A DNA stretch of 64,000 nucleotides from Bryobacterales bacterium (GTDB taxonomy: Bacteria > Acidobacteriota > Terriglobia > Bryobacterales > Bryobacteraceae), in contig DAIDIH010000410.1 of the NCBI GenBank assembly GCA_027459465.1, positions 21,192 through 85,191 of the forward strand, written 5' to 3'. The notes below the pieces were generated by a model. That model made no database searches. It was not told the DNA's origin and saw only the letters and a program-made list of their open reading frames with translations. Shown here in pieces: positions 6,444 to 40,389 of the stretch; positions within the stretch are counted from its first letter, which is position 1; the number at the start of each line of letters is the position of its first letter. Made by a program: the position numbers and the translations under genes.

Positions 6444-6525
6444 CGCACCGCATCCGCCATATTCTCTCAGCCTCGCCAGTTAATAACGCGGCTCCCCCGC
6501 CGGCGAATTCCCGTTCGACGAGCCT

Positions 6526-6930
6526 TTATTTCTTTGCTTTGGTCGCCAGGATCTTGTTGATCTCCGGGTTGAGGCCCTCGGCGAACCAACTTTCGGCGAG
6601 CGCCAGTTCGGCCTCTGATAGCCCGACCTTGGTCTTGGCACTTTCCAGAAATTGTTTCTGCGCCTCTCCCACAGCTTTGTTGTAGCTGCTGAGCGCTTGA
6701 GTATATTGCTCCTTTTGGGCTGCGCTGAGCTTGAACATCTGGGCGTTGCCGGGGCAAAGCTGGCCCGTCTTCATGTGCCCGCAGAATATCTCGGGCGCAT
6801 CGGACTTAGGGTGTACCTCCTTTGCGCTCGCTCCCCCGTGTCCCTCGTGTTCCTGGGCATAGAAAGTCCCCGCGGCAAACAGGGTCATCAGCACGGTCAT
6901 GGGAATCAATCCCGCAGTTAAACGTTTCAT
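6526..6930 (-). CDS. Secreted/periplasmic protein with a Cys pair and a His-rich patch, putative metal binding
   Basis: Start chosen at MKRLTAGLIPMTVLMTLFAAGTFYAQ (signal peptide). Contains HEGHGG and CGHMKTGQLC. Confidence 0.5.
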   Translation of the reverse strand: MKRLTAGLIPMTVLMTLFAAGTFYAQEHEGHGGASAKEVHPKSDAPEIFCGHMKTGQLCPGNAQMFKLSAAQKEQYTQALSSYNKAVGEAQKQFLESAKTKVGLSEAELALAESWFAEGLNPEINKILATKAKK

Positions 6931-6993
6931 AGCGGCAATCTCCTTTTCTTGGATCTCTGGCTCGCTTCTCGAAGAATGAAGCCTAAAACACAC

Positions 6994-7983
6994 CTATAAA
7001 GAATGCGGCGCCGTGGCGATGTGAAAACCGGCGTCGCTGATGACTTTTTGCAATGCGGCGACGTTCTGCGTGCTTGGATCGTAGGTCACGACGGCTTTGC
7101 GGCTGTCAACATCCAGCTTCGCATCCGCCACGCCAGGCAGCTTGCGGAGGGTGGCCGAGAGGCTAACTGCGCAGGCTGGGCAGTCCATATCGCGAACTTG
7201 GAAGGCAACCGTTGACAGACCTGCCGAGCTCGCAGAACGGGCCGGGACGGGCTGCCGAACCACCATTTGCGCTACCGCTCCCGAGTAGTAAGGAAACGCC
7301 GCCAAAGCGACCACGCCCGTAGCGAGAATCCCCAATGCGATACGGTTCCAGCGGCTCATCGGCTTCGTCGCGCAGAGACTGCCGGCGGCGCAGGCCTTCT
7401 TGTGATCGCGCCAGGCGAGGAAAAATCCGCCGACCAGCAGCAGCCCGGTCAGGCCGAGCAGGTACGGCCGCCATTTTTCGAACGCCACGCCGGCGGCGAT
7501 CGCGCCCGCGCCTGTCACCGCCGCCACAATAGGGAGAATGCAGCACAATGAAGCGCCAATGGCAGCAGCTACCGAGGCCACCAGAAGCAATCCTTTCTGC
7601 TTCGGAACGGATTCGGCTGCCTGCGCCGTACCCGCCGGAACTGCACAGCAGTCGTGCGCAGCGGGATGTCCGCCTGCCGCTTCCCGCACGGCAGTGCGAA
7701 TCAGGTCCAGAGGGGGAGTTCCTACCTGTCTGCCTCCATCGGCATACGTCCGGCACATCACGCCAAAGTCTTTGGACAAGCGCGCGGATGGCTCGATATC
7801 AAGACCGCCGATGCGGACCGTCGGCGAGCCCAGAAAGCCTAACGAACGGGCAGCAACGCCATCTGGCACGTTGACATCAACCACCTCCGCGGCCACGCCC
7901 TCCTGCTGCAGGATTTCTTTCACGCGATCTACTGTCGGAGCGTAATTCGGGCATCCGTCAAAAAAGAAAATTTCAACTTTCAT
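6994..7983 (-). CDS. merT: Three-domain fusion: thioredoxin-fold (DUF2703-like) + MerT + MerP-like HMA
   Basis: N-terminus MKVEIFFFDGCPNY...GSPTVRIGGLDIE...CRTY. Middle SLCCILPIV...WRPYLLG...FFLAWRDHKKACAAGSLCA (MerT signature). C-terminus VRDMDCPACAVSLS (HMA). Confidence 0.75.
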   Translation of the reverse strand: MKVEIFFFDGCPNYAPTVDRVKEILQQEGVAAEVVDVNVPDGVAARSLGFLGSPTVRIGGLDIEPSARLSKDFGVMCRTYADGGRQVGTPPLDLIRTAVREAAGGHPAAHDCCAVPAGTAQAAESVPKQKGLLLVASVAAAIGASLCCILPIVAAVTGAGAIAAGVAFEKWRPYLLGLTGLLLVGGFFLAWRDHKKACAAGSLCATKPMSRWNRIALGILATGVVALAAFPYYSGAVAQMVVRQPVPARSASSAGLSTVAFQVRDMDCPACAVSLSATLRKLPGVADAKLDVDSRKAVVTYDPSTQNVAALQKVISDAGFHIATAPHSL

Positions 7984-8423
7984 GATTTACCTTCCTGCCT
8001 GTCGGCATGCGCAATCTGCTCCAGAACGGGGCAGCATTCTTCCTCTGCGCTGGTGTGCCTTTTCAGGCTGCGGTCGCAATTGCGAAGTGCTCCTTTTAAG
8101 TCGCTCTCCAAAGCCTGAAGTTGCTCGATCTTGAGGCGCACGGACTCCAGCTTGCGCTGCAACAGCTCCCGGACGTGGGAGCACGCCTGCAGCTTTTCGT
8201 CTCTCAGAAGGAGCAGCTCCCGAATTTCGGCGAGTGAAAACCCCAGAGTCTGGGCATGATGGATGAAGTGCAGCCGTTCGACCGACTCCCCGCTGTAGAG
8301 CCGAAATCCTCCCGCCGTTCGAGCAGGCCGGGGCAAAAGGCGCTGCTTCTCATAGAAGCGGATCGCATCGACCGTTAGACCTGTCTCTTGAGCAACGTCT
8401 CCAATCTGAAGGGCGTGAGACAT
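7980..8423 (-). CDS. merR: MerR-family regulator, probably the Hg(II)-responsive MerR
   Basis: HTH IGDVAQETGLTVDAIRFYEKQRLL. Cys at about 81, 115 and 128/129 (QACSH, RNCD, EECCP), close to the MerR Cys triad spacing. It is the first gene of the mer operon. Start taken at MSHALQ. Confidence 0.75.
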   Translation of the reverse strand: MSHALQIGDVAQETGLTVDAIRFYEKQRLLPRPARTAGGFRLYSGESVERLHFIHHAQTLGFSLAEIRELLLLRDEKLQACSHVRELLQRKLESVRLKIEQLQALESDLKGALRNCDRSLKRHTSAEEECCPVLEQIAHADRQEGKS

Positions 8424-8445
8424 GAATTTAGACCTTCTATTTATA

Positions 8446-8477
8446 AAGATACACTCTGGAGTTGACTCCAGAGTCAA
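8446..8477 (-). promoter_or_regulatory. MerR-type promoter: TTGACT, 19-20 nt spacer containing a 10-bp inverted repeat, then TATCTT
   Basis: Minus strand reads TTGACT CTGGAGTCAACTCCAGAGTG TATCTT. Inverted repeat ACTCTGGAGT/ACTCCAGAGT at 8453-8474. About 20 nt upstream of the merR ATG. Confidence 0.6.
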
Positions 8478-8667
8478 GCTTTTTTTGGGGCTCTGGGTTG
8501 CACCCCAGGCACGTGCTGCATTGGCTACCCAGGTGATGGGCTGCAATGTGCGGGTGAGCGGTGGCTGTCTCAGCCGGGTTTACCTCCTGTGACGGCGTAG
8601 TGTTTGGCGACGCAGGGCAAAGGTTGTTCCCGGACGGAGCGGCAGGAGTCGCGCCACTAGAACGTGA

Positions 8668-9708: not shown

Positions 9709-10539
9709 TCAGCCAGTCATAACTGAGGATTTCAAGATTTCGGCAAACTCGTTCGGCGTTCGGTAGCCCAGGCTGCTGTGGGGCCGTTCGCCATTGTACT
9801 CATCCCGCCACGCCGCGATCTTTGCCCTGGCGTCGAACAGATTCCGAAACCAGTTCGCATTCAGGCACTCGTCTCGCAGTCGACCGTTGAAGCTCTCCAC
9901 GTGGCCGTTCTGCATGGGCCGCCCCGGTTGAATATGGATCAGGTGAATCTTTCGCTCTTCACACCAGCTCAGAAAATGTCGACTGGTCAACTCAGGCCCG
10001 TTGTCGCAACGAATCGCTTCCGGGTTTCCTCGACGTTCCACTACGGCCTCTAGCGCGCGCGTCACCCGACGGCTCGACAAACTCACATCGACTTCTAAAG
10101 AAAGGTTTTCTCTCGTAAAGGAATCCACAACCGTTAAAACACGAATGCCTCGACCTGTCGCTAGGGCATCCGAGACGAAATCCAGCGCCCATTCCTGATT
10201 CGATCGCACCAGATGCGAGGCCACTGCCACTCGCGCCAACCGCTTCCGCTTTAACCGCCGCACCATCAGCCCCTCGGCTCGATACAGCCGATACACGCGT
10301 TGCGCGCTTGCTTCAAATCCTCGCTTGGTCACCAACGCGTGCAATCGCCGGTATCCATACCGTGGCTTTTGACGCGCCAGACTCACCAACTCCTGCCGCA
10401 GTGCCGCGTTGTGATCCGTCCGTGGCTCGTAACGATAACTGCTCCGATCGAGTGCGATGAGCTTGCAGGCCCGACGCTCGCTCACCCCGAGTTGCTCGCA
10501 GGCGAACGCCACATCGGCCCTCACGCCGGCAAGCTCCAC
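9709..10539 (-). CDS. IS3-family transposase OrfB (DDE/rve core)
   Basis: WALDFVSD...LTVVDSFTRE...IRCDNGPELTS...HIQPGRPMQNGHVESFNGRLRDECL...ERPHSSLGYRTP. Confidence 0.85.
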   Translation of the reverse strand: MELAGVRADVAFACEQLGVSERRACKLIALDRSSYRYEPRTDHNAALRQELVSLARQKPRYGYRRLHALVTKRGFEASAQRVYRLYRAEGLMVRRLKRKRLARVAVASHLVRSNQEWALDFVSDALATGRGIRVLTVVDSFTRENLSLEVDVSLSSRRVTRALEAVVERRGNPEAIRCDNGPELTSRHFLSWCEERKIHLIHIQPGRPMQNGHVESFNGRLRDECLNANWFRNLFDARAKIAAWRDEYNGERPHSSLGYRTPNEFAEILKSSVMTG

Positions 10540-10802
10540 CCGTTTTTTCGGATCACCGCTTTCAGTACTTCCTTGTCGAGGCTGAGGTCGGCAACCAGGT
10601 GTTTCAGGCGCCGGTTTTCATCCTCCAGCCCCTTCAGTCGTTGTGCTTCGTTGACGTCCATGCCGCCGTACTTCGATTTCCAGGTGTAGATCGTCGCGTC
10701 GCTGACTCCGATCTCCCTAGCCAGTTCCGGCACTTTCCGCCCGGCCTCGTGCTGCTTCAGCACACCGATAATCTGCTCTTCTGTGAACCGCCCCTTCTTC
10801 AT
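10521..10802 (-). CDS. IS3-family transposase OrfA (HTH)
   Basis: MKKGRFTEEQIIGVLKQHEAGRKVPELAREIGVSDATIYTWKSKYGGM... An A6 run at 10543-10548 (CGAAAAAACGG) lies in the orfA/orfB overlap, a likely -1 slippage site. Confidence 0.85.
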   Translation of the reverse strand: MKKGRFTEEQIIGVLKQHEAGRKVPELAREIGVSDATIYTWKSKYGGMDVNEAQRLKGLEDENRRLKHLVADLSLDKEVLKAVIRKNGWSLPA

Positions 10803-11244: not shown

Positions 11245-12239
11245 TTGCACCGGGGGCCAGCCTGGAAATACCAAGACTGGATAGAGTGGCTCTTCATCAT
11301 GTTTCGTTCGGCAGCGACTCAGCCGCCGCGCGCTTTGCGACGATCCTGCTCGAAATCGGTATCGCGAGCCCGGCAGATTGGAAACAATCCGATAATGAGC
11401 CGACAAAATTTCTGCTTCGGGCATTCGACCGCTTCATACGGAGCCACGGCGAATCTGCAATTGATGGCGCCTTCGAAGTATCTGTCACGCTTTCTACTGA
11501 CCCGCACGAATGGTGCGAGGCGGAAGACGAGCCGGACGGCTCACAGATGTTTCTCTACGTGGAGTCAGCGTCGTGCGGCTTCGTGAATCTGGGGCCGGCG
11601 TTGGCGCTCTTTGAAAAAGAGCATCGCCGTTTGGCGGCGACGTTCGCCCGCCTTTTCCTGAGCGGTATCGGGAGTTGCTTCCGGATCTATGACGACCGCG
11701 ACGCCGAAGAGCACCTTTCCTATCTCGAAGACAATTACGATCCTCAGGAGGACGCTGAAGCCCTTGCCGCGCTACCGGATCGCGAGAAGATTCTGCCGGC
11801 GTGCATGAAGCAAAAGCCACTTGGCCGGAGAGCTCTGAGGGCCATGTTGCCGCGAATAGCGCCCCGGAGCAGAGTGGCACGGTTGCTGAGAGCAACGCTG
11901 GAACTCGCGCGTGTGTCCAACCGGGTACACCTTCCAGAAATTCCAGAGCCGATCCGTGAGCTTTTCTGCGATTGCAATCCGCCGGTTCCAGTACTGCTGG
12001 CAATATTTGAATTGGGGGATGCCGTGGAAGCCTGTTTTGACGACGAGCGGCAATCGATGCTGGAAGCGACACCTGAGCCCTGGCCGCTGATTCCTTTTGA
12101 TGGGACGAACGTCGAAAGTACGCGCCGGGCATTCGACTGCTTAGGTGGTGCTCTGGGCATCCTCGCCGCCGCACGGCGCGTGCTCGATCTGATACCGGGC
12201 TGGGAACCGATCGCCCGGAATCGGGAGAACGGATCATGA
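11130..12239 (+). CDS. PRTRC system protein F-like, start uncertain
   Basis: 369-aa acidic protein in the position held by protein F between C and B in the PRTRC cassettes I recall. The stop overlaps the B start. Confidence 0.5.
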   Translation: MSAVSAVLQDPSAGTATQQLQPKALADDGAARACPPWLIAPGASLEIPRLDRVALHHVSFGSDSAAARFATILLEIGIASPADWKQSDNEPTKFLLRAFDRFIRSHGESAIDGAFEVSVTLSTDPHEWCEAEDEPDGSQMFLYVESASCGFVNLGPALALFEKEHRRLAATFARLFLSGIGSCFRIYDDRDAEEHLSYLEDNYDPQEDAEALAALPDREKILPACMKQKPLGRRALRAMLPRIAPRSRVARLLRATLELARVSNRVHLPEIPEPIRELFCDCNPPVPVLLAIFELGDAVEACFDDERQSMLEATPEPWPLIPFDGTNVESTRRAFDCLGGALGILAAARRVLDLIPGWEPIARNRENGS

Positions 12240-12934
12240 ACAAGATCGTCCATTTCGGTTCCAATCGGACCTTCGGGTTGGCCAAGGCAATTCTGGTTTA
12301 CTCCGATGGTCAGGAGCTGTTCGCGACCGTGCATGAGCCGCGGAATTCGCCCGACGGTGGACCGCCTTATCTCGATGCCGGTGAACCTCTCAATATCGAA
12401 TTCATGAAGGAATTAGCGAGAGGACTTGGACGGACAGTGCCGCGGGAAATTCTTCCGGCCAATGTTCTTGTGCGCACGCCCGACATGCTGGTCTGGTGGG
12501 CAAAACAGCAGCGCCGGGTCATGTTTTACGGCGATGCAAGCGATGGGCGGACACTGAATGGGAAGTTGTTTCCGCAGCCGCCCCTCGTGTTCAAGGTTTG
12601 CGGCTCGGAACTCTCGGTTCGGGCATTGGCGGAAAATCAGCGGCCTACGGCCAGTACGCCTCTGATGGTTGCGCCGTATTGGAACTGCGACCGTCAGGGC
12701 GGGCGGGTCTGCCAAGGGAGCATGCGCGTGCCGGGCAAGATGTGCCTGGAGGCGATGAAGGGCTGGGAGAAGGCGTTCTTTGAAAGCGAATTCACGCATG
12801 CGGCGCTGGGATGTCAGCTCACGACGCATCCAGAAGGCTTTCTTGGATTGTGGCGTGACCTGGCCGGAAGCGCGGATCTGTTCCCGGCGGAGTTTCTTAT
12901 AAAAAGCCAGGAGTCGCTGCAGAGTTTCGTATAG
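12236..12934 (+). CDS. PRTRC system protein B (prokaryotic E2-like)
   Basis: AKAILVY...PLMVAPYWNCDRQGGRVCQGSMRVPG. A central conserved Cys in a PxxN...C context, immediately upstream of the ThiF gene. Confidence 0.65.
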   Translation: MNKIVHFGSNRTFGLAKAILVYSDGQELFATVHEPRNSPDGGPPYLDAGEPLNIEFMKELARGLGRTVPREILPANVLVRTPDMLVWWAKQQRRVMFYGDASDGRTLNGKLFPQPPLVFKVCGSELSVRALAENQRPTASTPLMVAPYWNCDRQGGRVCQGSMRVPGKMCLEAMKGWEKAFFESEFTHAALGCQLTTHPEGFLGLWRDLAGSADLFPAEFLIKSQESLQSFV

Positions 12935-12949
12935 GCGCGGGAGGATTGA

Positions 12950-13729
12950 GTGCACACGATCATACCTCATCTGTTGCGTGGCACGGTGAGAATTGCCGTT
13001 GTGGGTTGCGGCGGCACAGGAAGCGCCATGATTGGCGGCTTACCCCATTTGCACCAGGCAATGCTGGCCGAGGGCCACCCTGATGGCCTGGCCGTCACAG
13101 TCTATGACGGAGACCGGATCTCGGCCGCGAACTGCGTACGCCAGCCATTTTCTGCCGGTGAAATCGGGCTATTCAAATCGGTCGTTCTCATCAACCGCCT
13201 GAACCTGTTCTGGGGATTGGAGTGGAAGGCTGTGCCGCAGCACGTCACCGGCCAGGAGATTACCAATAACTTCGACATGGTCATCGGCTGCGTAGATACG
13301 CGGGCCGCGCGGGGATCGATTCACGAAGCCGTTACCAGTTCCTGGTCCGCGACGACGTATTGGCTGGACGTCGGAAACTCTAGTGACACTGGGCAGTTCG
13401 TCCTCGGACAACCGCTCAATCGCGCGAACAAGCACAAAGCTGCGCGATTACGGACCGTGTCGGAGCTCTTTCCAGAGATCATCGATCCATCGCTCGATGA
13501 TGATTCCCAACCGAGTTGCAGCGCGGCTGAGGCCTTGCTTAGGCAACACGCATTTATCAATCAAACGCTGGCGAACCACGCCCTCGCGCTGTTGAGCCGG
13601 TTATTCCGTGGCGAGCCACTGGAGTGGCACGGAGGCTTCGTGAATTTGGCAAGCGGATCGGTTGTCGCGTTGCGCGCGGATTCCAGAGTCTGGAGAGGAA
13701 TGCGAAGAAGGGCTCTCCGGGCCGCATGA
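12950..13729 (+). CDS. PRTRC system ThiF-family (E1-like) protein
   Basis: RIAVVGCGGTGSAMIGGL nucleotide loop, YDGDRISAANCVRQPF, GCVDTRAAR. GTG start after GGGAGG. Confidence 0.8.
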   Translation: MHTIIPHLLRGTVRIAVVGCGGTGSAMIGGLPHLHQAMLAEGHPDGLAVTVYDGDRISAANCVRQPFSAGEIGLFKSVVLINRLNLFWGLEWKAVPQHVTGQEITNNFDMVIGCVDTRAARGSIHEAVTSSWSATTYWLDVGNSSDTGQFVLGQPLNRANKHKAARLRTVSELFPEIIDPSLDDDSQPSCSAAEALLRQHAFINQTLANHALALLSRLFRGEPLEWHGGFVNLASGSVVALRADSRVWRGMRRRALRAA

Positions 13730-13804: not shown

Positions 13805-14119
13805 CTAGTCCACTCCCGCAGCAGCGCCGTCGGGCAGTTCGGCCCGGTCGTTTAACGTCGTGGAAAGTTCCTTTCCCGCTTTAAACACCGCCGTCCGCTT
13901 AGCGGGAATTGATAGGGTTTCGCCAGTACGCGGATTGCGGGCCTGTCGAGGCTTCGTTTCGCGGACCTTGAACACACCGAGACCGCGCAGATCTATTTTC
14001 TCGCCGCGCTGAAGTGCTTGCTTCAGCACGTCGACGACTGCTTCCAGTGCTCTCTCGGTCTCGGTTTTCGTCTTGCCGAGAGTACCGGCGAGCGTTTCGA
14101 CGAACTCAGCTTTTGTCAT
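13805..14119 (-). CDS. HU/IHF-family DNA-binding protein
   Basis: MTKAEFVETLAG...LRGLGVFKVRETKPRQARNPRTGETLSIPAKRTAVFKAGKEL. Confidence 0.85.
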   Translation of the reverse strand: MTKAEFVETLAGTLGKTKTETERALEAVVDVLKQALQRGEKIDLRGLGVFKVRETKPRQARNPRTGETLSIPAKRTAVFKAGKELSTTLNDRAELPDGAAAGVD

Positions 14120-14204: not shown

Positions 14205-15716
14205 GTGATACGAAGTACAAGTGATTTCACTAAAGCGTTCCGGGCGGCTCGCCGGGTATCAACGCCGCTGATCGTAGTGCGCACACCCGACCCGGCGAGT
14301 TCAGTTCAACTCGTCCTGTCTGCGGTGAATGGCGCCAACGAAAAAACCCCCGCGCTCCACTGGGACGCCGTACGCGGGCTGGTCGGTGTGAATGATGCGG
14401 GCAAGGCGCACGCACGTGAGATCGTGGGCGACGCGGAGCCAAGCTCTGTTGGCCCGGATGGTGTGCTCGCGCTCGGTGAAAAGCTGCGTGAAGACTCGAT
14501 CCTTTTCATTGCAAACGCGCACCGGTTTTACGGAGATGTTGCAGTTGCCCAGGGGATCTGGAACCTGCGGGATGGCTACAAGGCACGGGGGTGCATGCTC
14601 GTCCTGCTGACAACGTTGAGCGCGAGTCTGCCCGAAGAACTCGCTCAGGACGTTTTGGTCCTGGACGAACCACTGCCGACGATCGCGGATCTGGAGCGAA
14701 TCGTTCAGGAGACCGTGGACGCGGCGGACATGGCCCCTCTGGGCGGAACGGAAATGCAGCGTGCCGTCGACGCGCTAATCGGCCTGGCTGCTTTTCCAGC
14801 GGAGCAGGTGGTCGCCATGTCGCTCTCGAAGCAGGGTCTCGATGGCGAACAGTTATGGCAGCGAAAGCGGCAGATCATCGAACAGGTTCCCGGGCTGAAG
14901 ATTTGGCGCGGAGGGGAAACCTTTGAGGAGATCGGCGGCTGCGAGAATGTGAAAGAATTTCTGCGGGCAATCCTGGCTGGCGCGGATTCTCCACGAGTTG
15001 TGGTGTTCGTAGACGAGATCGAAAAAGCCTTCGCCGGGACCGGCACAGACTTGTCGGGCGTGAAGACCGAGATGACCGGGACCATGCTCACCTGGATGCA
15101 AGACAACGAGGCGGATGGGCTGATTTTCATCGGGCCAGCCGGCGCGGCAAAAAGCGCAGTCGCCAAGGCGACAGGCAACACCGCGGGCATACCGACAATC
15201 GCATTTGATCTGGGTGCGATGCAAAGTTCCTTGGTCGGAGGATCGGGTGAGCGTCTTCGCGCGGCGCTGAAGGTCGTTGAGGCGGTGAGCCAGGGCCGTG
15301 CGTTGTTCATTGCGACATGCAACTCGATCGCCTCGCTTCCGCCCGAATTGCGCCGGCGCTTTACGCTGGGCACTTTTTTCTTCGATTTGCCCTCAGCGGA
15401 CGAGCGCGAGGTGATCTGGAGGATTTACGAAAAGAAGTACAGTGTCTCTGGTGATCGGCCTGAAGACGAGGGCTGGACGGGCGCCGAGATTAAAGAGTGT
15501 TGCCGAAAAGCTGGACGGCTGGGGCTGCCGCTGAGGCGCGCCGCCGAGTACACGGTGCCGATATCGAAATCCGCCGCCGAACAGATCAAGTCGCTGCGCC
15601 AGCAAGCATCGGGCAGGTTCATCAGTGCATCGAGCGCGGGTGTCTACCGCTACGAGGAAACGGCGACGGCGCCAGCGCCGGCGACAGCGCGGCGCATCCG
15701 GAGTGTGGAGGCTTAA
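14205..15716 (+). CDS. Ycf46-like two-domain AAA+ ATPase with non-canonical motif order
   Basis: VVVFVDEIEKAFAG..TMLTWMQD comes before LIFIGPAGAAKSAVAKA..VGGSGERLR, which comes before ALFIATCNSIASLPPELRRRF..DLPSADERE. GTG start after AAAGGAG. Confidence 0.75.
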   Translation: MIRSTSDFTKAFRAARRVSTPLIVVRTPDPASSVQLVLSAVNGANEKTPALHWDAVRGLVGVNDAGKAHAREIVGDAEPSSVGPDGVLALGEKLREDSILFIANAHRFYGDVAVAQGIWNLRDGYKARGCMLVLLTTLSASLPEELAQDVLVLDEPLPTIADLERIVQETVDAADMAPLGGTEMQRAVDALIGLAAFPAEQVVAMSLSKQGLDGEQLWQRKRQIIEQVPGLKIWRGGETFEEIGGCENVKEFLRAILAGADSPRVVVFVDEIEKAFAGTGTDLSGVKTEMTGTMLTWMQDNEADGLIFIGPAGAAKSAVAKATGNTAGIPTIAFDLGAMQSSLVGGSGERLRAALKVVEAVSQGRALFIATCNSIASLPPELRRRFTLGTFFFDLPSADEREVIWRIYEKKYSVSGDRPEDEGWTGAEIKECCRKAGRLGLPLRRAAEYTVPISKSAAEQIKSLRQQASGRFISASSAGVYRYEETATAPAPATARRIRSVEA

Positions 15717-15721
15717 ACACG

Positions 15722-16135
15722 ATGAGCAAGTACGGAGTTTTGGATACCCAGATAAAAGAACAGAAGCACCTGATCGCCGCGCTTGAAGAGATGGGCTATC
15801 GGGTGGAAGTTCATCCGGAAGGCGCTGCTTTGTTCGGCTACGAAGGTCGGGAGCGGCCGGAGAAGGCGAACATCATCATCCGCCGGCGCCAGTTGGATTC
15901 GGCGTCGAATGATATCGGCTTTGCGCGGACGGCGGATGGACGTTACGTCGCGAGGCTGAGCGAGTATGACCAGCAGATCGGATTCAATCAAAAGTGGCTG
16001 AACCGGGTCCACCAGGTCTATAAGGAGAAGCAAACCATCGCCATTGCGAAAGCGAAGGGGTACATCTTCCAGGGCCGGGAGGTCGTCAAGACCGATCAGG
16101 GCGAGCGGATTCAGCTCCGGTTTGCTGTTCGATGA
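15722..16135 (+). CDS. DUF1257 (Ycf35-like) protein
   Basis: MSKYGVLDTQIKEQKHLIAALEEMGY...NDIGFARTADGRYVARLSEYD...WLNRVHQVYKE...ERIQLRFAVR matches the recalled Ycf35 pattern. Confidence 0.7.
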   Translation: MSKYGVLDTQIKEQKHLIAALEEMGYRVEVHPEGAALFGYEGRERPEKANIIIRRRQLDSASNDIGFARTADGRYVARLSEYDQQIGFNQKWLNRVHQVYKEKQTIAIAKAKGYIFQGREVVKTDQGERIQLRFAVR

Positions 16136-16145
16136 GGGGGCGACG

Positions 16146-16340
16146 ATGGCGCAGAAGACAGTAACAATTGTGATCGATGAGAATGGAAACAGCTCAATCG
16201 ATTTGGAAGGTTTCGCCGACAACAGCTGTACCAAGGTGTTCGACGACTTCCGTGGCGGCGACAAGGTCAGGACGGAACGCAAGAAGGCATCGTTCTACAA
16301 CGCGACGCAGACTGAAAAGCCGGCGAGCACCGGCCGCTGA
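16146..16340 (+). CDS. DUF2997-like mini-protein
   Basis: MAQKTVTIVIDENGNSSIDLEGFADNSCTKVFDDF. This family commonly sits next to DUF1257. Confidence 0.6.
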   Translation: MAQKTVTIVIDENGNSSIDLEGFADNSCTKVFDDFRGGDKVRTERKKASFYNATQTEKPASTGR

Positions 16341-16354
16341 GAGGGAGAAGCAGG

Positions 16355-16954
16355 ATGTTGGTGCATGGATTCGTACCTGTCAGCCGCGCCAACGGGCCTG
16401 GGCGGCGCGCGGTGTTGTGGGTTCAAGGGTGCACGCTCAACTGCGATTCGTGCTTCAACTGGGCGAGCCATCCGTTCGAAGGTGAACCTACCGATGGAAG
16501 TGATATTATTCGGCGCGTCCTTACTCTGCAACATGCAGGGCAAATCGAAGGTTTGACGTTTTCCGGCGGCGAGCCGATGCAACAGGCAAGTTCGCTGCTG
16601 GAGCTGATCGAGAGACTGCGCGCCGGTAGCCCAACACCATTGAGTTTCGGAATGTTCACAGGGTACACGCTCGAGGAGTTGGAGCGAGGTCAGTACTTTA
16701 CGTTCGAAGAGTGCCTCGACAAGATAGCGACCTGGCGCCTGATCCGCGCCCGGCTCGATTTTGCAGTTGCCGGGAGGTACAACCGCCTCGCACCGGTGGC
16801 GCTTCCGATGCGCTCCAGCCGCAATCAACGCTTGCATCTTTTCACCACACGATACCGGGAAGGCGACTTTGCGGAGCCGACGGTGGAAGTGTCGATTGAA
16901 GAAGATGGATCCGCGACGGTCACTGGCCTTCCATTATTGGGCGTTCCGGCATAA
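16355..16954 (+). CDS. Radical SAM protein of the glycyl-radical-enzyme activase (NrdG/PflA-like) type
   Basis: ANGPGRRAVLWVQGCTLNCDSCFNWASH (CxxxCxxC) and LTFSGGEPM. 199 aa. Confidence 0.7.
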   Translation: MLVHGFVPVSRANGPGRRAVLWVQGCTLNCDSCFNWASHPFEGEPTDGSDIIRRVLTLQHAGQIEGLTFSGGEPMQQASSLLELIERLRAGSPTPLSFGMFTGYTLEELERGQYFTFEECLDKIATWRLIRARLDFAVAGRYNRLAPVALPMRSSRNQRLHLFTTRYREGDFAEPTVEVSIEEDGSATVTGLPLLGVPA

Positions 16955-17446: not shown

Positions 17447-18355
17447 ATGGCTGCATTGGCCATCCCCATCGAGGGACAGGAGCAGAGCCTGTCGCAAAGT
17501 ACCGTAATTCTACAAGTCAAGTTTGGCTTACTCGGAGATTCCCGAAAGGTTTCCAGTTCGCAAGTTGAAGTCGATACCGACAAGCAGCTACTGCGGGTCG
17601 CCAAGAAAATCCTGGTGTCGGCCGAATTCGAGGCGATCCGTCAGGTGGACCGGAGGGTAAAGAAGTACCTGGACAGTGTCTGTGTGCCTTTTGAGACAGG
17701 CACACGGTTCCTGGCGGTCCCGCTGATCGAGGACGTTGACCACAAGCTCCACGATTTTGAACGGGAACGCGCCGCTTGGGTTGATCGCTTCCTGGACTCG
17801 TATCCGACGCTGTGCGAGAGCATGAGCGAACGGTTGCGGGTCCTGCACAATCCGACCGATTATCCCCCGCTCGACATGGTCAAGGCGCGATTTTACTTCA
17901 CTTGGCGCTACGTCGCCTACGGAGTGCCGGGACAGCTGAAGACGATTTCGGGCCGCATCTGGCAGGAGGAGCGCGACAAAGCCGCTCAACGGTTCGCCGA
18001 GGCGCAGACCGAAGCACAGGTTCTGCTGCGGGAATCCATGTTGGAACTGGTCAACCACATGATGGAGCGACTGGAAGCTTCTGAGAATGGAAAACCAAAG
18101 GTCTTCAAGAAGTCCACGGTCGCGAATCTATGCGACTTTCTGGCGACGTTCGACTTCCGCAATATCGCGAATGACAGTGAGCTGAAGGAACAGGTGGACA
18201 AGGCGCGGGTGCTTCTTGCCGGCGTGACAGCCGAAGAAATCCGGACTACGGCGGACCTGCGTTCCCGGGTCAAGGCCGGCATGTCAGAGATCGCCGGCAA
18301 GCTGGATGCGATGGTGATCTCGATGCCACGCCGCAAGTTTCGGCCGGAGGACTGA
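17447..18355 (+). CDS. Hypothetical protein, possibly the DUF3150 family seen near PRTRC cassettes
   Basis: 302 aa with AGGAGA upstream. The family assignment is recollection only. Confidence 0.45.
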   Translation: MAALAIPIEGQEQSLSQSTVILQVKFGLLGDSRKVSSSQVEVDTDKQLLRVAKKILVSAEFEAIRQVDRRVKKYLDSVCVPFETGTRFLAVPLIEDVDHKLHDFERERAAWVDRFLDSYPTLCESMSERLRVLHNPTDYPPLDMVKARFYFTWRYVAYGVPGQLKTISGRIWQEERDKAAQRFAEAQTEAQVLLRESMLELVNHMMERLEASENGKPKVFKKSTVANLCDFLATFDFRNIANDSELKEQVDKARVLLAGVTAEEIRTTADLRSRVKAGMSEIAGKLDAMVISMPRRKFRPED

Positions 18356-18979: not shown

Positions 18980-20122
18980 GTGAGCTGTCTCAGTCATTGT
19001 GTGAGCTGTCTCAGTCATTGTGTTACTTTGATCCGTCGCCTCGGGTCGGTGTAGGTCCAGCGGAACGGCTTCGCTGACTTGCAATAGGCTTGAATGTATT
19101 TTCGGATCTTCCGAGATAGGTCGGCGACGGAGGTGAAAACGCCTCGGTCGATTACATCTCGCTGAATCTTGGCAAACCACAGCTCTACTTGGTTGAGCCA
19201 GGAGGAGTACGTTGGGGTGAAGTGAAACCGTACCTTAGGAGTTTCATCCAGAAACTCCTGAACGGCCGCTGTCTTGTGAGCCGACAGGTTGTCCAGTACG
19301 ATGTGAATCTCTCTGGCCCATCGGGTTTTACCCACCACGTCGCGCAGGAAGGCGATGAAGTCAGCACTGGTGTGCCGCGCTGTTGTCTTACCTTCGACTT
19401 TTCCCGTTTTTACGTCCAGAGCGGCATACAGCGAGAGCGTGCCGTGACGGTAGTACTCAAATCCATGGCGCTCGGCCCGGCCCGGCGAAAGCGGCAGCAC
19501 AGGATCCAACCGATCGAGCGCCTGAACCGCCGTCTTCTCGTCGACACAGAATACCGCCGCATGCTGCGGCGGCTTTAAATACAACGCAATGATGTCGGCC
19601 GCTTTCTGTTCGAAGGCCGGATCGTTGCTCATCATATAGCGATCCAGCCGATGTGGTTTCAATCTCGCCTGCGCCAGGATCCGCTGTACCGTCGCATGAC
19701 TCAAGTTCAGGTCAGCAGCAAGCTTCCGGCACGACCAGTGCGTGCTGCCGTCCGGCGGTTTGTGTTGGACTCTACGCGCGACACGCGCCTGCACGGCCGG
19801 AGTTGCCGCGCGCGGTTGACTACCTTTATGTCGTGGCTCCAGACCGTCTATACCGGCTTCCTGAAATCGAGCCTTCCATCGAGCAATCGTCGGCTTGGTG
19901 GTCCGCAGTGTCGCCACAATCTGCTCGTAAGTCATCCCCTCCGCAAGCGACAGGATGAGCTTTGCACGAAAGACATCCCCCGCGGGCAACGTGCGCGAAT
20001 GCGCCCATTTGGTCAGTTCCTCGCGTTGACTCTCCGTCAGTTCCAGCAAACCTCCATATCGTGTCACAACAGGGAGACGCTGGTACGCGATACACGGTTA
20101 CTGAATGACTGAGACACGCCAC
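18980..20122 (-). mobile_element. IS630-family insertion sequence, flanked by a TA duplication; left terminal repeat present as a 21-bp tandem duplication
   Basis: Ends GTGAGCTGTCTCAGTCATT (18980-) and reverse complement GTGGCGTGTCTCAGTCATT (-20122). TA at 18978-79 and 20123-24. gtgagctgtctcagtcattgt occurs twice (18980-19000, 19001-19021). Confidence 0.85.
19015..20067 (-). CDS. IS630-family transposase
   Basis: HTH N-terminus, VFCVDEKTAVQALDR, IHIVLDNLSAHKT, TPTYSSWLNQVELWF. The stop lies inside the terminal repeat. Confidence 0.9.
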   Translation of the reverse strand: MTRYGGLLELTESQREELTKWAHSRTLPAGDVFRAKLILSLAEGMTYEQIVATLRTTKPTIARWKARFQEAGIDGLEPRHKGSQPRAATPAVQARVARRVQHKPPDGSTHWSCRKLAADLNLSHATVQRILAQARLKPHRLDRYMMSNDPAFEQKAADIIALYLKPPQHAAVFCVDEKTAVQALDRLDPVLPLSPGRAERHGFEYYRHGTLSLYAALDVKTGKVEGKTTARHTSADFIAFLRDVVGKTRWAREIHIVLDNLSAHKTAAVQEFLDETPKVRFHFTPTYSSWLNQVELWFAKIQRDVIDRGVFTSVADLSRKIRKYIQAYCKSAKPFRWTYTDPRRRIKVTQ

Positions 20123-40381: not shown

Positions 40382-40389
40382 GTTGCAGT

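What the first reader, a model, noticed from the sequence alone, without database searches (positions are those of the whole stretch)
14205..16954. Ycf46-like AAA+ ATPase with swapped Walker-B and Walker-A modules, clustered with Ycf35/DUF1257, DUF2997 and a radical SAM activase on a mobile element
The 503-aa ATPase has the two-domain layout I recall for cyanobacterial/plastid Ycf46, but its C-terminal AAA module is in a different order.

- Straight after the FEEIGG..VKEFL linker comes ADSP-RVVVFVDEIEKAFAG..TMLTWMQDNEA (Walker B plus the TWM segment).
- Next comes DGLIFIGPAGAAKSAVAKA..LVGGSGERLRAALKVVEAVSQG. This is Walker-A-like and degenerate (GxxGxAKS), plus the GESE-like segment.
- Last comes RALFIATCNSIASLPPELRRRF (sensor 1 and Arg finger).

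In Ycf46 the order is Walker A, GESE, Walker B, TWxxE, VATAN. Two modules of roughly 45-60 aa therefore look exchanged, and the A.SP context before Walker B is retained.

The gene is followed at 5-15 nt spacing by a Ycf35-like gene, a DUF2997 gene and a glycyl-radical-activase-like gene. None of these has a known role on plasmids or ICEs.
Basis: partly seen in the sequence, partly recalled or inferred. Interest (0 to 1): 0.7.

Follow-up and report, generated by a model that had tools for sequence, protein, structure and literature searches.

The report
AAA+ ATPase with relocated Walker-B cassette
This gene encodes a Ycf46-like AAA+ motor in which the roughly 40-residue strand-helix unit carrying Walker B has moved in front of Walker A; the rearrangement is real, shared by a large phage- and island-borne lineage, and apparently undescribed.

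Summary
In the 503-aa protein (14205-15716, +) Walker B (VVVFVDEIEK, 265-274) lies 40 residues before Walker A (GPAGAAKS, 310-317). Sensor 1 (ATCN, 370-373) follows directly after the helix that normally leads into Walker B.

It is not an assembly artefact. 437 of 454 unique relatives from genomes, metagenomes and viral contigs show the same order, and none shows the normal order. The cultured phage Tunturi_3 is among them.

The nearest normal-order relatives sit in the same gene module: AAA, DUF1257, DUF2997, DUF3150. Re-ordering the two segments in silico gives a gap-free alignment to them. The rearranged proteins form one clade (200/200 bootstraps).

Catalytic residues are at least 95% conserved, and inteins target the P-loop and sensor 1. 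Residue covariation recovers the normal sheet neighbours (strand 3 with 4, 1 with 4, 1 with 5). Only the loops far from the ATP site seem rewired, so the protein is probably an active ATPase.

The radical SAM gene is NrdG-like, restricted mainly to Acidobacteriota loci, and has no glycyl-radical partner. The biological role is unknown; I infer an early or establishment function of mobile elements. This is a new variant of a known kind.

The parts
14205..15716 (+). Ycf46-like AAA+ ATPase, 503 aa, with rearranged catalytic domain
   Evidence: ORF. Partial Pfam AAA match. 1858 homologues. 6160 50%-identity clusters at E<=1e-3.
14205..14909 (+). N-terminal domain (residues 1-235), AAA-like alpha/beta fold without nucleotide motifs (inactive D1-like)
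   Evidence: AF2 block pLDDT mostly about 80-90 here (range 69-91) with alternating strands and helices. Best Foldseek PDB hits align across both rings of p97/Cdc48/NVL. No conserved P-loop.
14910..14987 (+). Linker with the FEEIGG motif and helix alpha0 (residues 236-261)
   Evidence: Aligns with the IGG linker of normal-order relatives. E241, G244 and E238 covary with P-loop residues.
14988..15113 (+). Relocated cassette B (residues 262-303): strand beta3 with Walker B D270/E271, pore-loop-2 region, helix alpha3 with TWMQD
   Evidence: Aligns to the Walker B through sensor-1 stretch of VAT. 38-42% identical to the cassette that lies after alpha2 in normal-order relatives. D270 and E271 are invariant in the close set; across diverse members E271 is invariant and D270 at least 90%. 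AF2 predicts strand 265-269 and helix 286-300.
15114..15293 (+). Cassette A (residues 304-363): beta1, Walker A GPAGAAKS (310-317), alpha1, beta2, pore-loop-1 region (SLVGGSGE), alpha2
   Evidence: Pfam AAA positions 1-55 match residues 306-360. G310, G313 and K316 are invariant. Walker A to GxSE spacing is 34 residues, the same as in normal-order relatives.
15294..15392 (+). Cassette C (residues 364-396): beta4 with sensor 1 N373, PPELRRRF arginines, beta5
   Evidence: N373 is invariant and R385 is at least 90% conserved. Inteins are inserted at ATC|N in homologues.
15393..15716 (+). Lid domain and C-terminal tail (residues 397-503) plus stop codon
   Evidence: Weak AAA_lid_3 hit. WTGAEI motif conserved. 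Tail after residue 468 has pLDDT below 50.
15722..16135 (+). DUF1257 (Ycf35-family) protein, 137 aa
   Evidence: Pfam PF06868, E = 3.1e-10, above the cut-off. Present in 53 of 56 well-flanked genome loci. AF2 pLDDT 90, with no PDB fold match.
16146..16340 (+). DUF2997-like protein, 64 aa
   Evidence: No Pfam hit on its own. Aligns with phage Tunturi_3 gp101, which does hit PF11211 at E = 9e-7, and with annotated DUF2997 genes. Present in 53 of 56 genome loci.
16355..16954 (+). NrdG-like radical SAM protein, 199 aa (CTLNCDSC cluster motif, GGEP)
   Evidence: Fer4_12, E = 1e-26. TIGR02491 NrdG scores 81.5 bits against a cut-off of 126.1. Present in 52 of 56 genome loci but only 2 of 61 viral loci. 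No glycyl-radical signature nearby.
17447..18355 (+). DUF3150-like protein, 302 aa, the most constant neighbour of the ATPase
   Evidence: Present in 53 of 56 genome loci and 60 of 61 viral loci. Family members hit PF11348 (L083 E = 1.9e-9, L088 E = 1.1e-5). Normal-order relatives also carry DUF3150 downstream.
12236..13729 (+). PRTRC system protein B (E2-like, 12236-12934) and PRTRC ThiF-family E1 (12950-13729). These are context, not shown to act with the ATPase.
   Evidence: TIGR03737 scores 157.6 bits and TIGR03736 scores 282.1 bits, both above their cut-offs. In related loci they lie 5-9 kb from the ATPase, on either side.
13805..14110 (-). HU/IHF-type DNA-binding protein, transcribed divergently from the ATPase operon
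   Evidence: Pfam Bac_DNA_binding, E = 1.5e-27.

Best explanation
**What it is (shown).**
- The gene encodes a two-domain, Ycf46-type AAA+ protein.
  - The N-terminal domain is AAA-like and has no nucleotide motifs.
  - The C-terminal domain is a catalytic classic-AAA domain.
- In the catalytic domain one strand-helix cassette has been relocated. It comprises strand beta3 with Walker B, the pore-loop-2 region and helix alpha3 (residues 262-303).
- Its normal place is between alpha2 and beta4. Here it lies in front of beta1/Walker A.
- The order along the chain is therefore beta3-alpha3, beta1-alpha1-beta2-alpha2, beta4-alpha4-beta5.

**Origin (inferred).** The rearrangement arose once, within a mobile-element lineage of Ycf46-like ATPases. 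That lineage was already tied to DUF1257, DUF2997 and DUF3150 genes. It has since spread widely in phages and genomic islands, mostly of Acidobacteriota in the sample retrieved here.

**How it works (inferred).**
- The three-dimensional fold is unchanged. The sheet keeps the order 5-1-4-3-2.
- Only the three connecting loops on the side away from the nucleotide are rewired: alpha0 to beta3, alpha3 to beta1, and alpha2 to beta4.
- The P-loop, Walker B, sensor 1 and the arginine fingers therefore still meet, and the protein remains an ATP-hydrolysing ring motor.

**Biological role (inferred, roughly 0.3 confidence).** It is the motor of an early or establishment module of mobile elements. It would remodel or unfold protein clients together with the small DUF1257 and DUF2997 proteins and the DUF3150 protein. 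The NrdG-like radical SAM enzyme is a lineage-specific add-on.
For: **The order is real and family-wide.**
- 221 of 270 relatives show Walker B before Walker A by regular expression, and none shows the reverse.
- 79 of 80 genome loci and 79 of 80 viral loci show it.
- 437 of 454 unique sequences show it, and the rest are undetermined.
- Phage Tunturi_3 gp103 has it.

**It is a relocation, not loss plus gain.**
- Alignments to normal-order relatives show compensating gaps of about 40 aa.
- An in-silico re-ordering aligns without gaps.
- The cassette is 35-42% identical to its normal-order counterpart, like the flanking cassettes.
- Spacings are rigid and cassette-like.

| Step | Rearranged clade | Normal-order relatives |
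|---|---|---|
| IGG to first motif | 27 (to Walker B DE) | 26 or 30 (to Walker A) |
| Walker B DE to next strand motif | 40 (to Walker A) | 41 or 42 (to sensor 1) |
| Walker A to GxSE | 34 | 34 |
| GxSE to next strand motif | 26 (to sensor 1) | 25 (to Walker B DE) |

**Single origin.** The rearranged sequences form one bipartition in 200 of 200 bootstraps. This also holds when the two cassettes are left out.

**Same module as the normal-order relatives.** Those relatives also show AAA, DUF1257, DUF2997 and DUF3150 in that order.

**Function is retained.**
- The key catalytic residues (D270/E271, K316, N373, R385) are at least 90% conserved across members only 31-45% identical to each other.
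- Inteins sit in the P-loop and at sensor 1.

**The fold is retained.**
- AF2 keeps every secondary-structure element, including strand 265-269.
- Covariation used 454 sequences, effective number 193.
  - Of the top 50 couplings, 21 link the relocated cassette to beta2, pore loop 1, alpha2 or beta4.
  - Only 4 link it to beta1, the P-loop, alpha1, alpha4 or beta5 (binomial p = 3e-4).
  - The strongest strand pairs are beta3-beta4, beta1-beta5 and beta1-beta4.
  - Residues just before beta3 couple to the end of alpha2 (A260-V357, z = 18).

**Mobile-element setting.**
- 214 relatives were found in IMG/VR.
- More than 564 relatives were found in metagenome contigs.
- RadC and ParB are neighbours of the normal-order forms.
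- PRTRC, IS elements, mer genes and a Tn7-like element lie in the window.
Against: - I could not read the coordinates of the model. The meeting of K316 with D270/E271 is therefore inferred, not measured.
- The AF2 model is only moderate: mean pLDDT 73, and 55-79 across the catalytic core.
- The covariation analysis has a low effective sequence number (193) and no structural ground truth. The direct beta2-beta3 strand coupling is weak (z = 1.9); that adjacency shows mainly through the loops after the strands.
- The window's own Walker A has Ala where the second conserved Gly normally sits (GPAGAAKS).
- Pore loop 1 lacks the usual aromatic residue (SLVG), so threading of substrates is uncertain.
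- No experiment or annotation gives a function for any module member. PADLOC, PHROGs and PDB searches gave nothing specific.
- The absence of a published description is based on a limited open-access library.
Confidence: 0.75

Rival explanations
1. Local misassembly or sequencing artefact: the true gene has the normal Walker A to Walker B order.
For: None beyond the oddity of the order itself.
Against: - The same order appears in hundreds of independent assemblies from NCBI, ENA, JGI, Logan and IMG/VR, and in a complete cultured-phage genome.
- P0001 is 99% identical to the window protein over its full length.
Confidence: 0.01
2. The relocated cassette does not rejoin the active site. The protein would be an ATP-binding but hydrolysis-dead scaffold or switch, with the upstream DE motif serving another role.
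For: - The window's Walker A is atypical (GPAGAAKS).
- The model confidence in the core is moderate.
- There is no biochemical data.
Against: - Of the Walker B pair, E271 is invariant and D270 at least 90% conserved across a very diverse clade. Most members have fully canonical Walker A motifs.
- Covariation places the cassette next to beta4, beta2 and alpha2.
- Inteins home to the P-loop and sensor 1, as they do in active enzymes.
Confidence: 0.08
3. Three-dimensional domain swapping: in the ring, the beta3-alpha3 cassette of one subunit completes the sheet of its neighbour, so the active fold is assembled in trans.
For: - Covariation cannot tell contacts within a chain from contacts between chains.
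- The cassette is flanked by flexible Gly/Asp-rich loops.
Against: - The rewired loops are no longer than the normal ones. That fits an intramolecular arrangement and leaves little slack to reach a neighbouring subunit.
- The AF2 monomer model assigns 265-269 to a strand, which DSSP does only for residues paired in a sheet within the chain.
Confidence: 0.07
4. The ATPase works as the Cdc48/p97-like segregase of the neighbouring PRTRC ubiquitin-like (E1/E2) system, rather than with DUF1257, DUF2997 and DUF3150.
For: - PRTRC B and ThiF genes lie immediately upstream in the window.
- They lie within 5-9 kb in a subset of related loci.
- The best PDB fold matches are p97/Cdc48.
- A JAB/RadC gene precedes some normal-order relatives.
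Against: - PRTRC genes are detectable within 6 kb in only 7 of 56 genome loci and in no viral locus. DUF3150, by contrast, is present in 60 of 61 viral loci.
- The distance and the side vary.
- Phage Tunturi_3 carries the ATPase module without PRTRC.
Confidence: 0.07
5. The four-gene cluster is a radical-SAM-centred system. The NrdG-like enzyme would install a glycyl radical or another modification on DUF2997 or DUF1257, and the ATPase would be an accessory chaperone.
For: - The radical SAM gene is tightly linked in 52 of 56 Acidobacteriota-type loci.
- DUF2997 has a conserved Gly...Gly..Cys pattern.
- In cyanobacteria DUF2997 and ycf35 are clustered with the ferredoxin gene fed7 (PMC4284462).
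Against: - The radical SAM gene is absent from 59 of 61 viral loci and from all normal-order loci examined, so it cannot be the core.
- No glycyl-radical signature is present.
- The NrdG score is below the cut-off.
Confidence: 0.1

Closest known systems
Normal-order Ycf46-type AAA ATPases of mobile elements (for example WDT73634.1 on a Candidatus Manganitrophus plasmid, WP_281009472.1 on Pseudanabaena plasmid pPg_01, and P0396-P0515) and cyanobacterial/plastid Ycf46 (COG0464, SpoVK/Ycf46/Vps4)
   Same: - Same two-domain architecture and length.
- Same signature motifs: IGG linker, DEI(D/E)K, TW(M/L)Q, VGxSE, AT(C/A/S)N, PPEL.R.
- Same neighbours: DUF1257, DUF2997 and DUF3150.
- 24-31% identity over the full length.
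   Different: - Their order is Walker A, GESE, Walker B, TWxxE, sensor 1.
- Here the Walker B/TWxxE cassette precedes Walker A.
- The rearranged proteins form a separate clade.
- Pfam AAA matches only half of the domain.
Type II classic-clade AAA proteins (p97/VCP, Cdc48, VAT, NVL)
   Same: - Best sequence and fold matches in the PDB.
- Two stacked AAA-like domains.
- Second-region-of-homology arginines and sensor 1 Asn.
   Different: - The first domain lacks all nucleotide motifs.
- There are no N-terminal substrate or adaptor domains of the p97 type.
- Pore loop 1 lacks an aromatic residue.
- The strand connectivity of the active domain is rearranged.
Circularly permuted P-loop GTPases (YlqF/YawG/RsgA families). 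This comparison rests on my own knowledge and was not tested here.
   Same: They are a precedent that the nucleotide-binding motifs of a P-loop fold can occur in a changed order along the chain while the three-dimensional site is kept.
   Different: - Those are true circular permutations of the whole domain in the GTPase class.
- Here two adjacent internal segments of an ASCE/AAA+ domain are exchanged, and the domain's N- and C-terminal ends are unchanged.
NrdG, the anaerobic ribonucleotide reductase activase (for the downstream radical SAM gene)
   Same: - Similar size.
- CX3CX2C cluster motif and GGEP motif.
- Full-length alignment to TIGR02491.
   Different: - The score of 81.5 bits is below the 126.1-bit cut-off.
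- No NrdD or other glycyl-radical enzyme motif is present in the window or in related loci.

Membership tests
AAA+ superfamily, classic AAA (Pfam PF00004) | Walker A P-loop, GxxxxGK[ST] | tested here: met
   GPAGAAKS at 310-317 (Ala replaces the Gly preceding the Lys). G310, G313 and K316 are invariant in the clade. Many members have GPPGSGKS.
AAA+ superfamily, classic AAA (Pfam PF00004) | Walker B hhhhDE, sensor 1 Asn, and arginine finger(s) in the second region of homology | tested here: met
   VVVFVDE (265-271), N373 and R383-R385. D270/E271, N373 and R385 are at least 90% conserved across the diverse set; R383 and R384 are invariant in the close set.
AAA+ superfamily, classic AAA (Pfam PF00004) | Colinear order Walker A, Walker B, sensor 1 (beta1-alpha1-beta2-alpha2-beta3-alpha3-beta4) | tested here: not met
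   Walker B lies 40 residues before Walker A. The Pfam match covers only profile positions 1-55 of 131. Alignments are non-colinear.
AAA+ superfamily, classic AAA (Pfam PF00004) | Five-stranded parallel sheet of order 5-1-4-3-2 that brings the motifs together | tested here: inconclusive
   AF2 retains all elements. Covariation supports beta3-beta4, beta1-beta4 and beta1-beta5 as neighbours, and beta3 loop to beta2 contacts. Coordinates could not be inspected.
AAA+ superfamily, classic AAA (Pfam PF00004) | ATP hydrolysis and ring assembly | not testable with these tools
   This needs biochemistry. It is only inferred from conservation and from intein insertion sites.
Ycf46-type ATPases (COG0464 branch) | N-terminal non-catalytic domain of about 230 aa, then one catalytic AAA domain, with signature motifs DEI(D/E)KAF, TWxQ(E/D) and PPELxR | tested here: met
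   Full-length alignments to the Pseudanabaena and Manganitrophus proteins. BFVD top hits are named ycf46.
Ycf46-type ATPases (COG0464 branch) | Genomic or phyletic link with Ycf35 (DUF1257) | tested here: met
   DUF1257 is adjacent in 53 of 56 genome loci, in phage Tunturi_3 and in normal-order relatives. ycf35 and ycf46 are co-retained in red-algal plastids (PMC5940233).
Ycf46-type ATPases (COG0464 branch) | Normal motif order | tested here: not met
   See above. I therefore file it as a rearranged sister lineage, not as an ordinary Ycf46.
DUF1257 / Ycf35 (PF06868) | Pfam score above the gathering threshold | tested here: met
   40.7 bits against a cut-off of 22.2.
DUF2997 (PF11211) | Pfam score above the gathering threshold | tested here: not met
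   The window ORF has no hit even at E <= 5. Membership is inferred from alignment and synteny with gp101 of Tunturi_3 (29.1 bits against a cut-off of 24.1) and with annotated DUF2997 genes.
DUF3150 (PF11348) | Pfam score above the gathering threshold | tested here: not met
   The window ORF 17447-18355 has no hit. Its homologues L083 (37.7 bits) and L088 (25.3 bits) pass the 24.9-bit cut-off.
NrdG anaerobic RNR activase (TIGR02491) | Score above the NCBIfam cut-off, and a glycyl-radical partner enzyme | tested here: not met
   81.5 bits against a cut-off of 126.1. No glycyl-radical signature is present in the window; the only regex match in related loci, one in L139 (VNRTCGFHV), is outside the module and looks like chance.
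PRTRC system | ThiF-family and protein B components above the NCBIfam cut-offs | tested here: met
   TIGR03736 scores 282.1 against 144.75. TIGR03737 scores 157.6 against 131.45. Other PRTRC components were not searched for.
Known anti-phage defence systems (PADLOC) | Significant match to a defence-system model | tested here: not met
   Only a generic AAA similarity to IetA (23.5 bits) and weak pVip and E1-E2 hits.

The most novel reading that the evidence does not exclude
This would be the first recognised natural lineage of AAA+/ASCE ATPases whose core strands are wired in a non-canonical order along the chain (3-1-2-4-5) yet still build the canonical 5-1-4-3-2 sheet and active site. It is ancient, monophyletic and abundant in phages and genomic islands. 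Together with DUF1257 (Ycf35), DUF2997 and DUF3150 it defines a widespread, uncharacterised mobile-element module. The normal-order cousins of this ATPase include the long-unexplained plastid and cyanobacterial Ycf46/Ycf35 pair.
Probability: 0.55. Interest if true: 0.8.

Novelty: new variant of a known kind. Interest (0 to 1): 0.68.

Why it matters
**Protein evolution.**
- The AAA+ core is among the most studied protein folds, and its motif order is treated as invariant.
- A large natural clade that moved the Walker-B strand-helix unit in front of Walker A, while keeping every catalytic residue, is a ready-made experiment. It bears on how far the connectivity of a Rossmann-like fold can change without loss of function.
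- It would also show how such a change arises. The likely route is an internal duplication of the A+B segment followed by two deletions, but I found no intermediates.

**Annotation.**
- Profile methods report only half a domain for these proteins. They are under-annotated, and alignment-based trees of AAA proteins will mis-handle them.

**Biology.**
- The work ties Ycf46-type ATPases to DUF1257/Ycf35, DUF2997 and DUF3150 as one conserved module of phages, plasmids and islands.
- That gives a testable handle on four families of unknown function. Two of them have been 'ycf' mysteries for decades.
- A cultured phage-host pair that carries the rearranged version is available: Tunturi_3 and Tunturiibacter psychrotolerans.

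Tried and rejected
**Misassembly.** Rejected; hundreds of independent sequences share the order.

**A canonical Walker A upstream of Walker B.** The only candidate is GVNDAGKA at 61-68, and it is not conserved.

**Known defence or phage families.**
- PADLOC and PHROGs gave only generic AAA hits. phrog_8638 matched in 4 separate stretches.

**Function of the partner proteins.**
- DUF1257 has no PDB sequence hit.
- A confident AF2 model of DUF1257 (pLDDT 90) has no significant PDB fold match; the best is E = 0.25 to BamC-N.
- A DUF3150 profile against PDB sequences and against PHROGs gave nothing.

**Literature.**
- Searches covered DUF2997/DUF1257, Ycf46, Ycf35, DUF3150, PRTRC and permuted AAA+ proteins.
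- They found no functional study and no description of this rearrangement.

**Evolutionary intermediates.** I looked for duplicated Walker A-B-A-B arrangements. Only chance regular-expression matches appeared among about 390 sequences.

**Methods that failed or needed repair.**
- A first iterative profile for DUF1257 drifted. It picked up alternative-frame translations of the ATPase 3' end, and I rebuilt it from trimmed envelopes.
- Biopython neighbour-joining and an all-family MAFFT run timed out and were replaced with numpy code.
- The first mean-field covariation run showed block artefacts; I fixed it with a zero-sum gauge and by excluding gaps.

**Not obtained.**
- The source organism: the look-up returned only a 1.6-kb ENA contig and clusters without names.
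- The distance between the P-loop and Walker B in the model: the tool does not expose coordinates.

Full report
**1. What is at the coordinates**

The window carries four tightly packed genes on the + strand.

| Gene | Coordinates | Length | Gap to previous gene |
|---|---|---|---|
| ATPase (GTG start) | 14205-15716 | 503 aa | - |
| DUF1257 | 15722-16135 | 137 aa | 5 nt |
| 64-aa ORF | 16146-16340 | 64 aa | 10 nt |
| Radical SAM | 16355-16954 | 199 aa | 14 nt |

The DUF1257 start is fixed by the 100% identical 137-aa protein P0271.

Family assignments:
- Pfam assigns DUF1257 at E = 3e-10 and Fer4_12/Radical_SAM at E = 1e-26.
- NCBIfam places the radical SAM protein nearest NrdG, at 81.5 bits against a cut-off of 126.1.
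- The two genes upstream are PRTRC protein B and the PRTRC ThiF-family protein, both above their cut-offs.
- An HU-type gene is transcribed divergently from the ATPase.

**2. The rearranged order is real**

Read directly, the ATPase motifs run in this order:
- FEEIGG, 240-245
- VVVFVDEIEK (Walker B), 265-274
- TWMQD, 296-300
- GPAGAAKS (Walker A), 310-317
- VGGSGE, 344-349
- ATCN (sensor 1), 370-373
- PPELRRRF, 379-386

Three independent comparisons show that this is not colinear with ordinary AAA domains.
- Pfam's AAA profile matches only residues 306-360, to profile positions 1-55 of 131.
- phmmer against the archaeal VAT structure gives two out-of-order pieces. Query 304-381 aligns to the Walker A through Walker B part of the chain. 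Query 263-311 aligns to the Walker B through sensor-1 strand.
- BLASTP against two normal-order relatives found on plasmids shows a pair of compensating gaps.
  - The relatives are Pseudanabaena WP_281009472.1 and Candidatus Manganitrophus WDT73634.1.
  - The window protein has about 40 extra residues (263-303) before Walker A.
  - It lacks 37-40 residues after AVSQ(362). That is exactly where the relatives have PCxLxIDEIDKAF...TWxQE.

Cutting residues 262-303 and pasting them after residue 363 in silico gives a gap-free alignment to the normal-order proteins across the whole core.

The relocated cassette is 38-42% identical to its normal-order counterpart. The Walker A cassette is 44-47% identical and the sensor-1 cassette 50-53%. 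The cassette was therefore moved within the lineage, not imported from elsewhere.

**3. It is not an artefact, and it defines a large clade**

Family size:
- The protein has 1858 homologues at E <= 1e-3 among the candidates scored, and the best 120 are 62-99% identical.
- A full scan of 1.84 billion cluster representatives found 6160 clusters at E <= 1e-3 and 1276 at E <= 1e-30.
- The best 150 of these (41-61% identity) almost all align to the query as one colinear stretch.

Motif order across the family:
- By regular expression, 221 of 270 have Walker B before Walker A and none has the reverse.
- The same holds for 79 of 80 loci from GTDB genomes and 79 of 80 loci from IMG/VR.
- After further scans, 437 of 454 unique sequences show it, and the rest are undetermined.
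- The complete genome of the cultured phage Tunturi_3 (PP885686) encodes a 44%-identical rearranged copy, gp103. It is followed by DUF1257 (gp102) and DUF2997 (gp101).

Diversity and origin:
- Members of the clade are only 31-45% identical to each other, so the clade is old.
- I built neighbour-joining trees of 47 rearranged and 46 normal-order sequences plus the Pseudanabaena protein.
- The rearranged sequences form one bipartition in 200 of 200 bootstraps.
- The same result holds when only the N-terminal domain and the part from sensor 1 onwards are used.
- This points to a single origin, within the limits of that sampling.

**4. Is the ATPase still functional?**

Conservation across 147 diverse members:
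- The key catalytic residues are invariant or at least 90% conserved: the Walker B Asp-Glu, the Walker A Gly and Lys, the sensor-1 Asn and R385 of the RRR motif. R383 and R384 are invariant in the closer 40-sequence set.
- Many members have a fully canonical Walker A (GPPGSGKS, GPPGTGKS). The window's GPAGAAKS is therefore a local variant and not a family trait.

Inteins in five representatives:
- P0152 and P0251 carry an intein in the P-loop (GPPG|C...HN|CAKS and ...HN|CGKS).
- P0196 carries one after the P-loop lysine (GHPGTGK|C...HN|S).
- P0133 and P0261 carry one at sensor 1 (IAT|C...HN|CN).
- Pfam confirms Intein_splicing, LAGLIDADG, HNH and Hint domains in four of the five; in P0251 the assignment rests on the splice-junction motifs alone.
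- From general knowledge, inteins typically home to the active sites of working enzymes.

**5. Is the fold kept?**

Topology argument (from general knowledge of the AAA+ fold):
- In the normal fold the sheet order is 5-1-4-3-2, and the catalytic loops all lie at the C-terminal ends of the strands.
- Moving beta3-alpha3 in front of beta1 changes only three connections at the opposite edge: alpha0 to beta3, alpha3 to beta1, and alpha2 to beta4.
- Each new connection reaches a strand only one or two positions away from the old target.
- All crossovers stay right-handed and on their usual face of the sheet.

The data agree with this.

- Spacings between motifs are rigid and nearly the same as in normal-order relatives.

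| Step | Rearranged clade | Normal-order relatives |
|---|---|---|
| IGG to first motif | 27 (to Walker B DE) | 26 or 30 (to Walker A) |
| Walker B DE to next strand motif | 40 (to Walker A) | 41 or 42 (to sensor 1) |
| Walker A to GxSE | 34 | 34 |
| GxSE to next strand motif | 26 (to sensor 1) | 25 (to Walker B DE) |

- AlphaFold2 (40-sequence alignment, mean pLDDT 73) keeps every element: helix 247-258, strand 265-269, helix 286-300, strand 304-309, helix 312-323, strand 331-334, helix 346-362 and strand 366-372.
- The best PDB fold matches are both rings of p97/Cdc48/NVL. The N-terminal 230 residues are therefore an AAA-like domain without nucleotide motifs.
- The best matches among viral models are phage proteins named ycf46.

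Covariation analysis:
- I could not read the model's coordinates, so I ran a mean-field direct-coupling analysis on 454 unique rearranged sequences. The effective number was 193.
- The strongest couplings tie the relocated cassette to the elements that flank it in the normal fold.

| Coupling | Elements | z |
|---|---|---|
| A260-V357 | residues just before beta3, with the end of alpha2 | 18 |
| D282-D335 | post-beta3 loop, with the end of beta2 | 13 |
| S284-L343 | post-beta3 loop, with pore loop 1 | 9.8 |
| V286-S374 | start of alpha3, with the loop after beta4 | 9.6 |
| G292-A354 | alpha3, with alpha2 | 8.9 |
| V267-R365 | beta3, with beta4 | 7.2 |

- G259-V358 (end of alpha0 with the end of alpha2) and T296-A354 (alpha3 with alpha2) behave in the same way as their neighbours in the table.
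- Of the top 50 couplings, 21 link the cassette to beta2, pore loop 1, alpha2 or beta4. Only 4 link it to beta1, the P-loop, alpha1, alpha4 or beta5. The two position sets are of equal size (binomial p = 3e-4).
- At strand level the three strongest pairs are beta3-beta4, beta1-beta5 and beta1-beta4. These are three of the four neighbour pairs of a 5-1-4-3-2 sheet.
- The fourth pair, beta2-beta3, is weak at strand level and shows only through the loops after the strands.
- This is supportive but not conclusive. The effective sequence number is low, relatedness is not fully removed, and contacts between subunits cannot be told from contacts within one.

**6. The gene module**

Counts use loci with at least 3 kb of flank on both sides. 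Detection used profiles that I built from the loci.

| Neighbour within 6 kb | Genome loci (n = 56) | Viral loci (n = 61) |
|---|---|---|
| DUF1257 | 53 | 20 |
| DUF2997-like | 53 | 36 |
| Radical SAM | 52 | 2 |
| Homologue of ORF 17447-18355 | 53 | 60 |

- In the genome loci two gene orders occur. The ATPase comes either first or after the radical SAM gene.
- DUF1257 is under-detected in the viral loci, because several adjacent ORFs of 100-143 aa give only weak Pfam hits.
- ORF 17447-18355 belongs to a divergent DUF3150 family. Its homologues L083 and L088 pass the Pfam cut-off, although the window copy does not.
- Normal-order relatives sit in the same module: AAA, DUF1257, DUF2997, then DUF3150 a few genes on. 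RadC/JAB lies upstream and ParB downstream, in phage- or plasmid-like contexts.
- The core module is therefore AAA + DUF1257 + DUF2997 + DUF3150. The rearrangement happened inside it.
- The radical SAM gene is a later addition confined mainly to Acidobacteriota. Apart from one stray regex match outside the module (L139), which looks like chance, no glycyl-radical signature is present in the window or in the loci, so 'glycyl-radical activase' is only a similarity label.
- PRTRC genes are near the ATPase in only a minority of loci, at variable distance and on either side. I treat them as context.

The window as a whole looks like a genomic island. It carries:
- Rad52 and Gp157
- a mer cluster
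- IS elements
- a DUF6094 methyltransferase with an SNF2 helicase
- a P-type ATPase
- AbiEii
- an AEP-TOTE primase-helicase
- a Tn7-like transposase
- CHAT-TPR

No conjugation genes fall inside the window.

**7. What it does**

Shown:
- The rearranged motif order.
- Its breadth and single clade.
- Conservation of the catalytic residues.
- The conserved module.
- The mobile-element setting.

Inferred:
- The protein is an active ring ATPase with an unchanged fold.
- It is the motor of the module.
- DUF1257, DUF2997 and DUF3150 are its partners or clients.
- The module acts early after a phage or island enters a cell.

The last point rests only on neighbourhood: small early-type genes in Tunturi_3, and RadC and ParB beside the normal-order forms. 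I hold it at about 0.3.

Function searches gave nothing specific.
- PADLOC, PHROGs and PDB searches gave nothing specific.
- The confident DUF1257 model (pLDDT 90) has no PDB fold match.
- The literature offers only co-occurrence. DUF2997, ycf35 and fed7 are clustered in cyanobacteria (PMC4284462). ycf35 and ycf46 are co-retained in red-algal plastids (PMC5940233).

**8. Comparison with what is known, and novelty**

- The protein works like, and descends from, Ycf46-type classic AAA ATPases. It fails one defining feature of the family, the motif order, so I file it as a rearranged sister lineage.
- From my own knowledge, the nearest precedent for a changed motif order in P-loop enzymes is the circularly permuted GTPases. 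Those are true circular permutations in a different class.
- I found no description of an AAA+ protein with Walker B ahead of Walker A in the searchable library. That library is limited to open-access papers and preprints.
- The likely origin is an internal duplication of the A+B segment followed by loss of the outer copies. No intermediate was seen among about 390 sequences.

**Verdict:** This is a new variant of a known kind, with interest about 0.68.

Noticed in passing
Homologues P0133, P0152, P0196, P0251 and P0261 (not in the window): Five rearranged-clade members carry inteins at three sites: the P-loop (GPPG|C...HN|CAKS or CGKS), after the P-loop lysine (GK|C...HN|S), and sensor 1 (IAT|C...HN|CN). 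Homing-endonuclease or Hint domains are present in four of the five. The conserved Cys of ATCN is the +1 splice residue.
   Followed up: yes
window 17447-18355 (+): A 302-aa, mostly helical ORF is the most constant neighbour of the ATPase (60 of 61 viral loci, 53 of 56 genome loci). It belongs to a divergent DUF3150 family.
   Followed up: yes
L001-L080: In Acidobacteriota loci the module occurs in two gene orders: AAA>DUF1257>DUF2997>rSAM>DUF3150 (33 loci) and DUF1257>DUF2997>rSAM>AAA>DUF3150 (19 loci). Single genome bins carry several copies; for example MFD05580.bin.1.127 has L005, L008, L010 and L028.
   Followed up: partly
window 14385-14408 (ATPase residues 61-68): A P-loop-like string, GVNDAGKA, follows a predicted strand in the N-terminal domain. 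The Lys is not conserved in the family and normal-order relatives lack it. It is probably chance, or a relic of a once-active first AAA domain.
   Followed up: yes
window 15722-16135 (+): The DUF1257/Ycf35 model is confident (pLDDT 90, pTM 0.82), a two-lobed alpha+beta fold. It has no significant match among solved structures (best Foldseek E = 0.25).
   Followed up: yes
window 9709-10802 (-) and 19015-20067 (-): Two insertion sequences flank the PRTRC/ATPase region. One is an IS3-type pair of overlapping ORFs; I read this from the sequence and did not run it through a profile search. The other is a DDE_3/IS630-like transposase (Pfam).
   Followed up: partly
window 4424-8546 (-): A mercury-resistance-like cluster: a pyridine-nucleotide disulfide oxidoreductase (MerA-like), a MerT-HMA fusion and a MerR regulator.
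   Followed up: partly
window 39386-45983 (+): An AbiEii toxin-like nucleotidyltransferase is followed by an AEP-TOTE primase fused to a ResIII/DEAD helicase (821 aa). Next comes a 902-aa Tn7-like protein with TnsA-N, rve and Mu-transposase C domains.
   Followed up: no
window 26410-30424 (+): A DUF6094 methyltransferase-like gene, a 164-aa ORF and a 759-aa SNF2/helicase gene lie in tandem.
   Followed up: no
window 1547-3071 (+): Rad52/22-family annealing protein next to a Siphovirus Gp157-like protein, a phage-type recombination pair.
   Followed up: no
window 51526-55418 (+): A TPR-CHAT protease-like protein (886 aa) overlaps the start of a PDZ-S41 peptidase ORF. A PD-(D/E)XK nuclease gene lies just upstream (50583-51386).
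   Followed up: no
L082 (Pseudanabaena plasmid NZ_CP112875, 129.8-138.0 kb): A normal-order Ycf46-type ATPase sits in a different cluster: GrpE, Hsp70-family protein, DUF1257, an ATP-binding protein, a hypothetical protein, DUF2997, the AAA ATPase, then a 734-aa hypothetical protein. This links DUF1257 and DUF2997 to chaperone genes.
   Followed up: no
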